Translations under genes and position numbers: made by a program
Source: Patescibacteria group bacterium
GTDB lineage: Bacteria > Patescibacteriota > WWE3 > UBA101185 > UBA10185
Assembly: GCA_049322215.1 (NCBI GenBank)
Contig: JBMORU010000001.1
Coordinates: 969,759 to 1,033,758 of the forward strand
Reading direction: 5' to 3'
DNA: 64,000 bases
Shown: in pieces, positions 56,360 to 57,197 of the stretch
Position numbering within the stretch: the first letter of the stretch is position 1
Layout of the letters: every line of letters begins with the position of its first letter
The notes under the pieces: generated by a model
Database searches by the model: none
What the model was told of the DNA's origin: nothing
The model's input: only the letters and a program-made list of their open reading frames with translations

Positions 56360-56768
56360 ATGTTAACAAGAGTTAGAAAATTTTCAAACATAGAACATAG
56401 ATTATGCAAGTTTAAGATTTTGTAGACCTAGCATTAAAATTTACTCATTACATGTGATGCATAAGTCAACTAAAAAATAAAAATTGCTTACAGGGCATTC
56501 TAGAGCCTCACACCCATTATTTACTGTCACAACAACAAATAGTAAGAATCAGCATGTTTAAAACTGCTAAAAATGTAATGAAATAAAAAAAGACAAGTGA
56601 GGTATATACGCAAGAAATGAAAATGCGGCATTAAACGTTGAATAGAGTAGCTGCGCCGCAAACTAAAAATAAATTAACATACAATTAAACAAAAATTTGT
56701 TTGGTATTAAAAAGTAAATTAATTTGGATCAAATTATAGGGAACAGGTTAGAATATTAAAAAATACAA

Positions 56769-56798
56769 GACGTCGTATAATGTATGTTTAACGACGCC
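56769..56798. other. dif-like / recombinase core-site-like imperfect inverted repeat
   Basis: GACGTCGTATAA - TGTATG - TTTAACGACGCC. The 12-nt arms match 9/12 as an inverted repeat around a 6-nt spacer. The ATAATGTAT core resembles E. coli dif CATAATGTATA (from memory). Confidence 0.35.
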
Positions 56799-56867
56799 GA
56801 GGATTTATATGTATTGCAAGCACATAGATTCAACTGAATAGGGAGGCTTAATGGGATCACTCTATTA

Positions 56868-56990
56868 AAGCAGTTAATTTAGAAGAATTAATTATGTATT
56901 AATAAGTATTATTTATAGCTATTTATTTATTAATTCAGTTTTTATTTACGGCTTAGTAAAATTAATTCTTACTTGAGTACAAATTAAGTT
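56868..56990. other. extremely AT-rich tract within an 838-bp noncoding region
   Basis: Runs such as TTAATTATGTATTAATAAGTATTATTTATAGCTATTTATTTATTAATTCAG. No ORF of 60 aa or more on either strand between 56360 and 57197. Confidence 0.6.
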
Positions 56991-57007
56991 ATGCACAATT
57001 AACTTGA

Positions 57008-57092
57008 AAAGTATGACAACCCTCCCCTAGCCAAAGTATGACAACATAAACTATGACATTCTTACTTAAATTGCTTAACTAACTATGACAAC
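57008..57092. repeat. iteron-like direct repeats TATGACA(A/T)(C/T), four copies
   Basis: Exact 13-mer AAAGTATGACAAC at 57008 and 57033, TATGACATT at 57052, TATGACAAC at 57084. Confidence 0.6.
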
Positions 57093-57113
57093 ATTACAAC
57101 AAGCATTAGTGTA

Positions 57114-57126
57114 ATAATACTATAGG
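57114..57126 (-). promoter_or_regulatory. orphan promoter-like element CCTATAGTATTAT facing the noncoding region
   Basis: The minus strand reads CCTATAGTATTAT, one mismatch from the 13-mer used by the lipoprotein genes. The next minus-strand CDS start is ~755 nt away (56359). ACTATGGGG lies nearby at 57141-57149. Confidence 0.4.
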
Positions 57127-57197
57127 TATTAGCAAATATAACTATGGGGTGTTAACAGCACTAGCACTTCCCTGCCTTCAGTTTTAGTCCTGTTTGT

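What the first reader, a model, noticed from the sequence alone, without database searches (positions are those of the whole stretch)
56360..57197. 838-bp AT-rich noncoding region with iteron-like repeats: origin-like or att-arm-like architecture
Seen: this is the largest noncoding gap in the window, in a genome that otherwise packs genes with overlaps. No ORF of 60 aa or more occurs on either strand. It contains an extremely AT-rich tract (56868-56990) next to four direct repeats of TATGACA(A/T)(C/T) (57012, 57037, 57052, 57084). Two of these repeats sit inside an exact 13-mer, AAAGTATGACAAC, spaced 25 bp apart. Established: clustered direct repeats next to an easily melted AT-rich tract are the hallmark of iteron-type plasmid or chromosomal origins. 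Arm-type sites of tyrosine integrases are also short direct repeats near the core site. Inference: the region could be (a) integrase arm-type binding sites flanking the candidate core site at 56769, that is, a remnant or active integrative-element junction. It could be (b) a replication-related element, although no dnaA or dnaN is nearby and the repeat does not resemble the TTATCCACA DnaA box. Or it could be (c) a regulatory or ncRNA locus.
Basis: partly seen in the sequence, partly recalled or inferred. Interest (0 to 1): 0.55.

Follow-up and report, generated by a model that had tools for sequence, protein, structure and literature searches.

The report
Dif site beside an origin-like module
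This 838-bp gap in a WWE3 (candidate phyla radiation) bacterium holds the site where joined sister chromosomes are separated, and 200 bp away a DnaA box, ordered repeats and an AT-rich tract that look like a replication origin, which suggests these chromosomes may be copied in one direction, starting and ending at the same place.

Summary
The gap, the four TATGACAWY repeats and the 82% AT tract are real and non-random.

About 90 related WWE3 (Katanobacteria) loci show one conserved layout: yebC-ruvC-membrane gene, then 2-5 same-strand repeats, a DnaA box, an AT-rich tract, a 28-bp palindrome, then xer.

- **The palindrome (56770-56797).** It has an 11-6-11 layout and is nearly invariant. It is almost certainly dif, the target of the adjacent single Xer recombinase.
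- **A polar hexamer.** AGGGGA lies on the + strand 28 of 30 times to the left of the palindrome. It lies on the - strand 13 of 13 times to the right. The flip falls within 500 bp of the palindrome in 66 relatives. This matches KOPS, the motifs that steer the FtsK translocase toward dif.
- **The DnaA box.** It is perfect (TGTGGATAA) in 58 of 63 relatives.
- **Strand asymmetry.** T/A asymmetry at four-fold sites does not invert at dif. It keeps its sign for at least 65 kb on one side and 16-32 kb on the other.

Best reading (about 0.4): origin and terminus sit together and replication is unidirectional, as proposed for other CPR genomes.

Main rival (about 0.3): a conventional terminus with a protein-binding array.

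An ncRNA, integrase arm sites and a bidirectional origin are not supported.

The parts
55373..56359 (-). xer gene: 328-aa tyrosine recombinase, XerC/XerD-like, the only one found in 82.5 kb
   Evidence: Pfam Phage_integrase 2.7e-44 plus SAM-like N-terminal domain. NCBIfam XerC 254 bits and XerD 252 bits, both below the equivalog cut-offs. Best solved relative is XerD 1a0p, 2e-44. Always follows the gap in WWE3 relatives.
56478..56549 (-). Third conserved patch between dif and xer (..TTGTGACAGTAAAT..GAGGCTCTAGAATGCCCTGTAAGC, then a T-run). Function unknown, possibly the xer promoter or leader.
   Evidence: Conserved at DNA level in several frames and on both strands, so not coding. 84-88% four-way identity in the L015/16/19/21 group, higher than the flanking genes. 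Alignment.
56660..56765 (.). AT-rich flank on the xer side of dif
   Evidence: Averaged over 36 non-redundant genomes, AT is 81-83% at 60-150 bp beyond dif. Sequence read.
56770..56797 (.). dif-type Xer site ACGTCGTATAA-TGTATG-TTTAACGACGC. Two 11-bp arms are near-perfect inverted repeats around a 6-bp centre.
   Evidence: Unique in the window. It is the only stretch of the gap conserved in every relative, 26-30 bp at 92-100% identity. Consensus AcGTCGTaTaATGTATgTTTAACGAC from 68 non-redundant sites. It is the exact flip point of the AGGGGA polar motif.
56868..56990 (.). AT-rich tract (82% AT), candidate DNA-unwinding element
   Evidence: 82.1% AT. The composition is conserved but the sequence is not: 83-88% AT at +60 to +130 from the DnaA box in 36 non-redundant genomes.
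56989..56997 (+). DnaA box, TTATGCACA here (one mismatch to TTATCCACA)
   Evidence: Perfect TGTGGATAA in 58 of 63 non-redundant relatives, always 189-245 bp from dif. In the set found through Xer alone, 14 of 20 loci have a perfect box there, against 4 perfect boxes elsewhere in 174 kb.
57006..57098 (-). Array of four oriented repeats (core TTGTCATA on the - strand; TATGACAWY at 57012, 57037, 57052 and 57084 on the + strand). Full unit about 15-19 bp, GTAnG-nTTGT-CATAC-TTT.
   Evidence: Relatives carry 2-5 copies, 56 on the same strand against 3 on the other, with spacing mostly 21-25 bp. High-scoring matches are confined to this gap in every locus.
57023..57028 (-). AGGGGA polar-motif copy inside the repeat array, pointing at dif. 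It is the first - strand copy. The last + strand copy is at 55298.
   Evidence: In relatives the motif density peaks within 500 bp on each side of dif.
57198..57992 (-). 264-aa membrane ORF, last gene of the yebC-ruvC-membrane operon that always precedes the gap
   Evidence: No Pfam or NCBIfam match. Conserved synteny.

Best explanation
The gap is the chromosome-dimer-resolution and termination locus of a WWE3 (Katanobacteria, CPR) chromosome, joined to an origin-type module.

**Shown**
- A 28-bp 11-6-11 palindromic Xer site (dif, 56770-56797) lies 410 bp upstream of the only xer gene.
- A G-rich hexamer, AGGGGA, is strand-polarised over at least 82 kb and reverses strand exactly at this site. 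This is how FtsK-orienting (KOPS-like) sequences behave.
- 190-245 bp from dif lies a DnaA box, perfect in most relatives.
  - On one side of the box are 2-5 same-strand copies of a 15-19-bp unit, spaced about two helical turns apart.
  - On the other side is an 82-88% AT tract.
- T/A asymmetry at four-fold degenerate sites keeps the same sign on both sides of dif.

**Inferred**
- DnaA bound at the box opens the neighbouring DNA.
- The oriented repeat array binds an unidentified protein. It either assists initiation, as iterons do, or blocks one fork, as a polar barrier does.
- Replication therefore runs round the roughly 0.9-Mb circle in one direction and ends where it began.
- Origin, terminus and dif thus coincide.
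- A single Xer, delivered by a translocase that reads AGGGGA, resolves dimers there.

Confidence is about 0.85 for the dif part alone and about 0.4 for the whole model.
For: **dif**
- Unique 28-mer.
- The only universally conserved DNA in the gap across 20 genomes found through Xer. Present in 57 further metagenome loci at 189-245 bp from the box.
- Consensus from 68 sites.
- Adjacent Xer-family recombinase.

**Polarity**
- AGGGGA is 26:2 on the left and 0:13 on the right, Fisher p = 6e-9. It is the top k-mer of 2300 tested.
- The position list includes + strand copies inside the - strand pilus cluster.
- In 66 relatives the counts are 168:29 on one side and 10:150 on the other.
- The flip falls within 500 bp of dif. 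Inside the xer gene the count is 4:19.

**Origin-type module**
- DnaA box.
- Oriented, unique repeat array.
- Conserved AT peak.
- DnaA-trio-like NAN runs next to the box: at least 5 in 32% of loci against 5% of controls.
- Replication genes nearby: holB, gyrB, gyrA, rnhB, ruvC, dnaB and ssb.
- CPR origins are described as short repeat arrays with DnaA-box-like sequences, not marked by gene content (PMC4736985; PMC7111523).

**One-way replication**
- Four-fold-site T-A skew on the + strand is -0.137, -0.214, -0.153 and -0.186 for left/+, left/-, right/+ and right/- genes. Third-position data agree.
- Same result in 66 relatives, and out to about 32 kb beyond dif in one relative.
- dif normally lies within 0-1.4% of genome length from the skew shift, at most 3% (PMC3025954). 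Here there is no shift within at least 65 kb, about 7%, on one side.

**Precedents**
- Complete Microgenomates genomes have a monotonic cumulative skew. Their authors proposed adjacent origin and terminus, or unidirectional theta replication (PMC7143001).
- Unidirectionally replicating Pseudoalteromonas chromids have dif 4-27 kb from the origin (PMC7858055).
Against: - Only one strong DnaA box is present. The window's own copy has a mismatch.
- By analogy with E. coli R1 and its unwinding element, the box orientation predicts unwinding on the repeat side. The AT-rich peak is on the other side.
- The spacing rule of the basal unwinding system (BUS) is met in only about two thirds of loci.
- No dnaA or dnaN lies within 82 kb.
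- Highly expressed genes point toward dif from both sides. rpsP, rplT-rpmI-infC and gyrA/B are on the + strand on the left. rpsF-ssb-rpsR, efp and dnaB are on the - strand on the right. This is what a conventional terminus predicts, not one-way replication.
- There is no replication-linked GC skew at four-fold sites, so the argument rests on T/A alone. Which strand is leading cannot be fixed.
- Uniform asymmetry was shown over about 82 kb of this genome plus relatives' loci, not over a whole chromosome.
- The protein that binds the repeats is unknown, and no FtsK gene was seen.
Confidence: 0.4

Rival explanations
1. Conventional terminus. Replication is bidirectional and ends at or near dif. 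The oriented repeat array is a terminus-specific protein-binding site: a polar fork barrier like Tus-Ter or RTP-Ter, or a terminus organiser like MatP-matS. The DnaA box is a regulatory or titration site. The non-inverting T/A asymmetry comes from some process other than fork direction.
For: - AGGGGA polarity and the orientation of ribosomal-protein, gyrase, efp and dnaB genes both converge on dif.
- All repeat copies share one orientation, which suits a polar barrier.
- AT-rich tracts flank dif on both sides. This suggests a role tied to dif rather than an unwinding element.
- RAAC2_WWE3_1 carries the locus at 451-460 kb of 878 kb. That is near the antipode if the record starts at the origin, which was not verified.
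Against: - Four-fold-site T/A asymmetry keeps its sign across dif in this genome and in 66 relatives. A terminus should invert it.
- No known terminus system uses a consensus DnaA box at a fixed 190-245 bp from dif. A literature search found none.
- The repeats lie on one side only, whereas fork traps have opposed sites on both sides.
Confidence: 0.3
2. Accessory sequences of a cer/psi-type resolution site. The DnaA box and repeats bind accessory proteins that wrap about 200-350 bp of DNA beside the Xer core. This imposes a topological filter, so recombination only resolves dimers, without FtsK and regardless of where the terminus lies.
For: - The conserved protein-binding motifs lie on one side of the core, at a constrained distance of 189-245 bp from box to dif.
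- dif is not at a mutational-skew shift.
- Known accessory proteins (ArgR, PepA, ArcA) are borrowed DNA-binding proteins (own knowledge; reviewed in papers listed).
Against: - The strong AGGGGA polarity converging on dif, and peaking within 500 bp of it, points to translocase-directed activation rather than FtsK independence.
- In cer and psi the accessory region abuts the core. Here about 190 bp of unconserved AT-rich DNA lies in between.
- No homologous system is known with DnaA.
Confidence: 0.1
3. Attachment site or remnant junction of an integrative element. The repeats would be arm-type integrase sites, or the module would be a relic of an iteron plasmid or a Xer-exploiting element inserted at dif.
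For: - A tyrosine recombinase gene is adjacent.
- Iterons, a DnaA box, an AT tract and a resolution site together form a typical plasmid backbone arrangement (own knowledge).
- A few relatives carry altered dif arms.
Against: - Same position, orientation and housekeeping neighbours (yebC-ruvC ... xer-guaB-like) in about 90 genomes whose Xer proteins are only 53-77% identical.
- Only one core site, and no second copy within 3 mismatches in the window.
- No rep, mobilisation or phage genes nearby.
- No match in viral contigs.
- The recombinase lacks an arm-binding domain.
Confidence: 0.04
4. A non-coding RNA gene, or simply the xer promoter and regulatory region.
For: - The gap is long and conserved in length, 675-1065 bp.
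- A third conserved patch lies 100-190 nt upstream of xer.
Against: - No Rfam family at gathering or permissive thresholds. No tRNA or tmRNA.
- Conservation is limited to short DNA motifs.
- Consensus folding of the array gives -0.57 kcal/mol with no compensatory pairs.
- Folding energy of the whole gap equals shuffles, z = 0.08.
- The conserved elements are a DnaA box and a recombinase site, both of which act on DNA.
Confidence: 0.04

Closest known systems
Single-recombinase Xer systems with the gene next to its site: XerS/difSL (streptococci, lactococci). Also XerH/difH (Campylobacterota) and XerA/dif (archaea).
   Same: - One Xer-family recombinase.
- The gene lies beside its chromosomal target.
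- The site has two arms around a short central region.
- Polar sequences converge on it.
   Different: - The WWE3 protein scores as XerC/XerD-like (254 and 252 bits). It is not XerS (133 bits against a cut-off of 267) and not XerH (XerH is only a distant match among solved structures).
- The site is a 28-bp, nearly perfect 11-6-11 palindrome with its own sequence.
- Whether a second Xer exists elsewhere in the genome was not testable.
E. coli XerCD/dif with FtsK and KOPS (GGGNAGGG). B. subtilis SpoIIIE recognition sequence GAGAAGGG.
   Same: - 28-bp 11-6-11 site.
- The left arm plus centre, CGTATAA-TGTATG, resembles E. coli CGCATAA-TGTATA (own knowledge of the E. coli sequence).
- A G-rich polar motif is over-represented in the orientation that points at dif and flips there.
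   Different: - The right arm mirrors the left instead of being a distinct XerD arm.
- The polar motif is a hexamer occurring about once per 2 kb.
- The mutational strand asymmetry does not flip at dif.
- No FtsK gene was identified in the 82 kb examined.
Unidirectionally replicating Pseudoalteromonas chromids (PMC7858055) and iteron-type theta plasmid origins (RK2, pSC101, P1; V. cholerae ori2)
   Same: - Direct repeats about two helical turns apart, a DnaA box and an AT-rich tract.
- dif close to the origin, as in the chromids (4-27 kb).
- Replication in one direction.
   Different: - No plasmid-type initiator gene lies beside the repeats.
- This is the main chromosome of a whole bacterial class.
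- The distance from origin-like module to dif is only about 0.2 kb.
- The repeat unit is partly dyad-symmetric.
Bacterial oriC basal unwinding system (DnaA box, spacer, DnaA-trios, AT-rich region; PMC8287927)
   Same: - A consensus DnaA box.
- A GC-rich spacer of about 8-17 bp.
- A run of NAN triplets (GAA AAG TAT GAC AA) formed by the nearest repeat.
   Different: - A single box.
- The triplet rule is met in only about 65% of loci.
- The strongest AT-rich tract lies on the opposite side of the box.
- Not next to dnaA.
- Polar motifs converge here instead of diverging.
Microgenomates (UBA1400) genomes with a single-polarity cumulative skew (Kadnikov et al. 2020, PMC7143001)
   Same: - A CPR lineage with a roughly 0.9-1 Mb genome.
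- Strand composition disparity that does not invert.
- Those authors proposed that origin and terminus lie close together, or that replication is unidirectional.
   Different: - There the disparity is G/C and was shown genome-wide, and no origin or dif was located.
- Here it is T/A and shown over about 82-100 kb, but a candidate origin-plus-dif locus is identified.
cer/psi plasmid resolution sites with accessory sequences
   Same: A Xer core site with conserved protein-binding DNA on one side, over a few hundred bp.
   Different: - The accessory region does not abut the core.
- The motif set is a DnaA box plus repeats, not ArgR, ArcA or PepA sites.
- Strong translocase-type polarity converges on the site.

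Membership tests
dif / Xer chromosome dimer resolution site | About 28-bp site with two 11-bp recombinase-binding arms around a 6-8-bp central region | tested here: met
   ACGTCGTATAA-TGTATG-TTTAACGACGC. The arms match as inverted repeats at 8-9 of 11 positions.
dif / Xer chromosome dimer resolution site | Single copy per chromosome, in non-coding DNA, conserved among relatives | tested here: met
   One match with up to 3 mismatches in 64 kb. Invariant core in 68 non-redundant WWE3 loci, always intergenic. The whole genome was not available.
dif / Xer chromosome dimer resolution site | A cognate Xer-family tyrosine recombinase is encoded | tested here: met
   Adjacent 328-aa protein. XerC 254 bits, XerD 252 bits and XerA 213 bits, all below the equivalog cut-offs. 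XerD structure match at 2e-44.
dif / Xer chromosome dimer resolution site | Located where chromosome polarity (KOPS-type skewed oligomers) converges | tested here: met
   AGGGGA flips strand within 500 bp of the site, in this contig and in 66 relatives.
dif / Xer chromosome dimer resolution site | Located at the replication-skew shift point (terminus) | tested here: not met
   Four-fold-site T/A skew keeps its sign across the site, and there is no replicative GC skew. dif is normally within 3% of genome length from the shift (PMC3025954).
dif / Xer chromosome dimer resolution site | Xer binds and recombines the site, with activation by FtsK | not testable with these tools
   Needs EMSA or in vitro recombination. 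No FtsK_SpoIIIE-domain gene was seen in the 82 kb annotated.
Bacterial chromosomal origin (oriC) | DnaA box(es) matching TTATCCACA | tested here: met
   One box. Perfect in 58 of 63 relatives, with one mismatch in the window. No cluster of several boxes.
Bacterial chromosomal origin (oriC) | AT-rich unwinding element next to the boxes | tested here: met
   82% AT at 56868-56990. A conserved 83-88% AT peak 60-130 bp from the box. Unwinding itself was not tested.
Bacterial chromosomal origin (oriC) | Basal unwinding grammar: box, spacer of 16 bp or less, at least 3 NAN trios (PMC8287927) | tested here: inconclusive
   At least 3 trios in 41 of 63 loci. At least 5 trios in 32%, against 5% of random controls. 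The trios are formed by the conserved repeat and lie on the side away from the AT peak.
Bacterial chromosomal origin (oriC) | Strand asymmetry and polar motifs diverge from the site (bidirectional firing) | tested here: not met
   Polar motifs converge on the gap and T/A skew does not change sign. A bidirectional origin is excluded. A unidirectional one is not.
Bacterial chromosomal origin (oriC) | Neighbourhood of dnaA/dnaN (common, not universal) | tested here: not met
   No Bac_DnaA or DNA_pol3_beta domain in 82.5 kb. gyrB, gyrA, holB and dnaB are present.
Iteron-type plasmid or chromid origin | Several direct repeats of about 17-22 bp at roughly helical-turn-multiple spacing | tested here: met
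   2-5 copies of a 15-19-bp unit, 56 on the same strand against 3 on the other. 19 of 36 spacings are 21-25 bp.
Iteron-type plasmid or chromid origin | A Rep initiator gene beside the iterons that binds them | tested here: not met
   The neighbours are a membrane ORF, ruvC, yebC and xer. None has a Rep-family domain.
Tyrosine-integrase attachment site with arm-type sites | Integrase with an N-terminal arm-binding domain, and arm sites on both sides of the core | tested here: not met
   Only SAM-like and catalytic domains are present. High-scoring repeats lie on one side only.
Known non-coding RNA families (Rfam) | Match to a covariance model, or conserved structure with covariation | tested here: not met
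   No match at gathering score, and best E-value 6 with permissive filters. No covarying pairs. z = 0.08.

The most novel reading that the evidence does not exclude
WWE3 (Katanobacteria) main chromosomes replicate in one direction from a DnaA-dependent origin that lies about 200 bp from dif. Origin, terminus and dimer-resolution site would then form a single compact locus. The oriented TATGACAAC repeat array would make initiation one-way, or arrest the returning fork.

This would give the first located origin/terminus for the single-polarity strand asymmetry reported in other CPR genomes. It would also be a natural case of a bacterial main chromosome with plasmid-like unidirectional theta replication.
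Probability: 0.4. Interest if true: 0.85.

Novelty: new variant of a known kind. Interest (0 to 1): 0.7.

Why it matters
All well-studied bacterial main chromosomes replicate bidirectionally, with dif opposite the origin.

A whole CPR class that keeps an origin-type module within 200 bp of dif does not fit that arrangement. Its polar motifs converge there, yet its mutational strand asymmetry runs straight through.

The locus offers a concrete test of the unexplained one-strand composition bias seen in complete Microgenomates genomes (PMC7143001). Read-depth profiles and skew plots on existing WWE3 genomes would settle it.

Even on the conservative reading, the work adds four things:
- It defines the dif site, the cognate single Xer and a KOPS-like motif (AGGGGA) for an uncultured class.
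- It gives a landmark for checking and orienting WWE3 genome assemblies.
- It identifies a conserved repeat array whose binding protein is unknown.
- It shows that DnaA has a conserved binding site at the point where segregation ends.

Tried and rejected
- **Known RNAs.** Rfam at gathering and permissive thresholds, and ARAGORN, found nothing.
- **Promoters and terminators.** The scan found fewer promoter-like sites than shuffles and no terminators in the gap.
- **Small ORFs.** A six-frame peptide comparison of the gap with relatives found no conserved small ORF. The hits were the dif site and DNA-level patches.
- **RNA structure.** RNAalifold on the repeat-box segment and a fold of the whole gap showed no structure signal.
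- **Mobile elements.** Viral-contig scans for the dif core and for the array found no matches, so no link to phage or to Xer-exploiting integrative elements (IMEX) was found.
- **Other CPR.** The WWE3 dif was sought near xer in Gracilibacteria, Peregrinibacteria and Doudnabacteria. It was not found within 4 kb with up to 9 mismatches.
- **Mirror-image repeats.** I tested whether copies lie on the xer side of dif. Only one relative (L004) has one, so the idea was rejected.
- **Helical phasing.** Box-to-dif distances are suggestive of phasing, but the genomes are not independent, so I did not pursue it.
- **Window-level GC skew.** It follows gene strand and is uninformative.
- **Literature.** Papers were checked for the origin position in RAAC2_WWE3_1 and for CPR dif sites. 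Nothing was found.
- **Reaching more of the contig.** Walking with homologue searches gave only about 15 kb more, in a relative.
- **Metagenome exceptions.** Hits to the array pattern outside WWE3 synteny were chance, coding sequence or unrelated: L079, L082 upstream of lexA, L122 and L131 eukaryote-like, L136 Firmicute. One was an inovirus-like element with its own TGTCAT iterons and a DnaA box, L070.
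Full report
**1. What is in the sequence**

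The stretch 56360-57197 lies between a tyrosine recombinase gene (55373-56359, - strand) and a 264-aa membrane ORF (57198-57992, - strand). That ORF ends a yebC-ruvC-membrane operon. The longest ORF in the gap is 44 aa.

- TATGACAWY occurs at 57012, 57037, 57052 and 57084, all on the + strand. These are half of the 8 matches in 64 kb, where 2.4 are expected.
- The 13-mer AAAGTATGACAAC is present twice, 25 bp apart.
- 56868-56990 is 82% AT, against 63% for the window.

**2. Organism and conservation**

The recombinase is 68-77% identical to proteins of candidate division WWE3 (Katanobacteria) genomes. These include the complete genome CP006914.1.

In 20 such genomes a gene-free gap of 675-1065 bp precedes xer and follows the same membrane gene. 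Only one segment is conserved in all of them: 26-30 bp at window 56768-56797.

A metagenome scan for two repeats followed by a DnaA box returned 85 loci. About 70 have the same gene order. The rest are chance or unrelated.

**3. The 28-mer is a dif-type site**

The sequence ACGTCGTATAA-TGTATG-TTTAACGACGC has two 11-bp arms that are near-perfect inverted repeats around a 6-bp centre. It is unique in the window. Its consensus over 68 non-redundant sites is AcGTCGTaTaATGTATgTTTAACGAC.

The adjacent protein has the SAM-like and catalytic domains of Xer recombinases. It scores equally on the XerC and XerD models, at 254 and 252 bits, below both equivalog cut-offs. Near-identical arms and one neighbouring gene suggest a single-recombinase system. 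Known examples are XerS/difSL, XerH and XerA.

**4. A polar motif converges on it**

I compared k-mer strand bias left and right of the site over 82.5 kb. That sequence is the window plus 9 kb and 9 kb fetched from the same contig.

- One hexamer stands out: AGGGGA, 26:2 on the left and 0:13 on the right, p = 6e-9.
- The position list shows + strand copies from -9156 to 55298, including inside the - strand type IV pilus cluster. It shows - strand copies from 57023 to 71008.
- In 66 non-redundant relatives the counts are 168:29 on one side of dif and 10:150 on the other.
- The flip is confined to within 500 bp of dif, and motif density peaks next to dif.
- Inside the xer gene the motif is 4:19 against the gene's own strand.

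This is how FtsK-orienting sequences behave around dif. Together with section 3, I regard the dif assignment as about 0.85 likely.

**5. The repeats belong to a conserved module with a DnaA box**

Read in the xer direction, relatives show this order:

- 2-5 copies of TTGTCATA. The full unit is GTAnG-nTTGT-CATAC-TTT, partly dyad-symmetric. 56 copies are on one strand against 3 on the other, and spacing is mostly 21-25 bp.
- A G-rich spacer that often contains AGGGGA.
- TGTGGATAA, the consensus DnaA box, perfect in 58 of 63 non-redundant loci.
- An AT-rich peak of 83-88% AT, 60-130 bp further on.
- dif, 189-245 bp from the box.

The window's own box is TTATGCACA at 56989-56997, with one mismatch.

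High-scoring repeat matches occur nowhere else in 82.5 kb of this contig or in the relatives' loci. Perfect DnaA boxes are otherwise rare, 4 in 174 kb.

The repeat nearest the box forms a run of NAN triplets (GAA AAG TAT GAC AA), 8-17 bp from the box in most genomes. This resembles the DnaA-trio grammar of bacterial origins (PMC8287927). The rule is met in only about two thirds of loci, and the AT peak lies on the other side of the box.

**6. Not an RNA, not a mobile-element junction**

- No Rfam or tRNA match.
- No covariation.
- Folding energy equal to shuffles.
- No conserved small ORF.
- The module is absent from viral contigs.
- It has the same housekeeping neighbours across the class.
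- The recombinase has no arm-binding domain.

**7. Replication polarity**

At four-fold degenerate sites the + strand has A > T for genes of both orientations on both sides of dif.

| Gene class | T-A skew on the + strand |
|---|---|
| left of dif, + strand genes | -0.137 |
| left of dif, - strand genes | -0.214 |
| right of dif, + strand genes | -0.153 |
| right of dif, - strand genes | -0.186 |

All 16 - strand genes on the right and 31 of 33 on the left share the sign. Third-position data agree.

The same holds on average in 66 relatives. A relative reached by walking from hisS keeps both the T/A sign and the AGGGGA strand to about 32 kb beyond dif. G/C skew at these sites depends only on gene strand.

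A terminus of bidirectional replication should invert the asymmetry. In other bacteria dif lies within 0-1.4% of genome length from the skew shift, at most 3% (PMC3025954). Here no shift occurs within at least 65 kb, about 7%, on the xer side. A bidirectional origin is excluded as well, because polar motifs converge on the gap instead of diverging.

**8. Synthesis**

One model explains the following together:
- the DnaA box;
- the repeat array;
- the AT tract;
- dif;
- the converging polar motif;
- the non-inverting asymmetry.

In that model replication starts beside dif, runs one way round the circle and ends where it began.

The model has precedents:
- Complete Microgenomates genomes show a monotonic cumulative skew. 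Their authors proposed adjacent origin and terminus, or unidirectional theta replication (PMC7143001).
- Pseudoalteromonas chromids replicate in one direction, shown experimentally. They carry dif 4-27 kb from the origin, with tus beside repA (PMC7858055).
- CPR origins have been described as short repeats with DnaA-box-like sequences that are not obvious from gene content (PMC4736985; PMC7111523).
- Replication genes cluster nearby: holB, gyrB, gyrA, rnhB, ruvC, dnaB and, in relatives, ssb.

**9. What speaks against it**

- There is only one strong DnaA box.
- No dnaA or dnaN lies within 82 kb.
- The orientation of the box relative to the AT peak is unusual.
- Highly expressed genes point toward dif from both sides: rpsP, rplT-rpmI-infC and gyrA/B on the left, rpsF-ssb-rpsR, efp and dnaB on the right. 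That is the signature of a conventional terminus.
- The asymmetry argument rests on T/A alone and on about 10% of a genome.

I therefore give the full one-way model about 0.4. I give about 0.3 to a conventional terminus whose repeat array is a fork barrier or organiser site. I give about 0.1 to cer/psi-like accessory sequences. The remaining readings get little.

**10. Verdict**

The gap is a class-wide conserved locus that combines the chromosome's dif site with an origin-type DnaA module.

It is a new variant of known kinds: Xer/dif, and DnaA-box origins with repeats. If ori and ter truly coincide, it would be a notable departure from the standard bacterial replication plan. The decisive analyses need only public data: skew and motif maps on three complete WWE3 genomes, and read-depth profiles.

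Noticed in passing
window 1-64000 and the flanks held as L055 and L056 (window coordinates -9187 to 73332): The + strand has A > T at four-fold degenerate sites in genes of both orientations across all 82.5 kb. Overall composition is A 34.6% and T 28.9%. G/C skew at the same sites depends only on gene strand. This is a strand-composition disparity like the one reported for other CPR genomes, but in T/A.
   Followed up: yes
window 60771-63332 (- strand): 853-aa protein with DUF8128, a HerA-type DUF87 ATPase domain and a TrwB/TraD-like domain. It lies 4 kb from dif, and no canonical FtsK was seen in 82 kb. It could be a DNA translocase linked to this locus or a secretion or conjugation ATPase. 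NCBIfam gives only weak CedD, TraD and VirB4 matches.
   Followed up: partly
L009 (gap positions about 450-480), L077, L123, L129: Some WWE3 genomes keep one dif arm and the centre (GTCGTTAAA-CATACA) but carry a different second arm (AAATAGCGTCGTC-like). The flanking DNA stays homologous. This could be an alternative dif allele that co-evolves with Xer, or a hybrid site left by an integrating element.
   Followed up: partly
L057 (contig Ga0124853_1348849, positions 2615-3253): Two copies of the repeat-plus-DnaA-box array lie in inverted orientation about 480 bp apart, around a degenerate dif-like sequence, in a contig with fragmented ORFs. This is either a palindromic assembly artefact or a real inverted duplication.
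   Followed up: partly
metagenome loci L060-L132 (for example L087, L091, L096, L098, L105, L130): Many contigs, including ones of 10-48 kb, end within about 300 bp of the repeat array or in the AT tract. For long contigs this is roughly four times the chance rate. Possible causes are AT-related coverage loss, strain variation at dif, or a coverage step.
   Followed up: no
L070 (Ga0310690_10086684, positions 645-703): An unrelated small element encodes a Zot-like ATPase and an HTH protein. It carries palindromic ATGACA-TTT-TGTCAT iterons that run straight into a perfect DnaA box. It looks like the origin of a filamentous phage or a plasmid.
   Followed up: partly
window 20533-41513 (- strand): A 21-kb type IV pilus cluster: PilM/N/O, prepilin peptidase, PilC, two PilB/PilT ATPases and several pilin-like proteins. 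It includes large proteins of 1058 and 955 aa with no Pfam match.
   Followed up: no
window 56478-56549: A patch between dif and xer is more conserved than the flanking genes in close relatives (CTAGAATGCCC core followed by a T-run). It shows no coding signal. Its function is unknown, perhaps the xer promoter or leader.
   Followed up: partly
window 17136-17776: The second-largest gene-poor stretch, about 640 bp between pyruvate kinase and nusB. It holds only a 102-aa GTG ORF on the opposite strand and has no Rfam or tRNA match.
   Followed up: no
L142 (ENA scaffold MUNK22-1 scaffold_3): In one WWE3 lineage AGGGGA is rare (3 copies in 21 kb) and the T/A asymmetry is weaker and more dependent on gene strand. 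The polar motif and the strength of the asymmetry may therefore differ between WWE3 subgroups.
   Followed up: no
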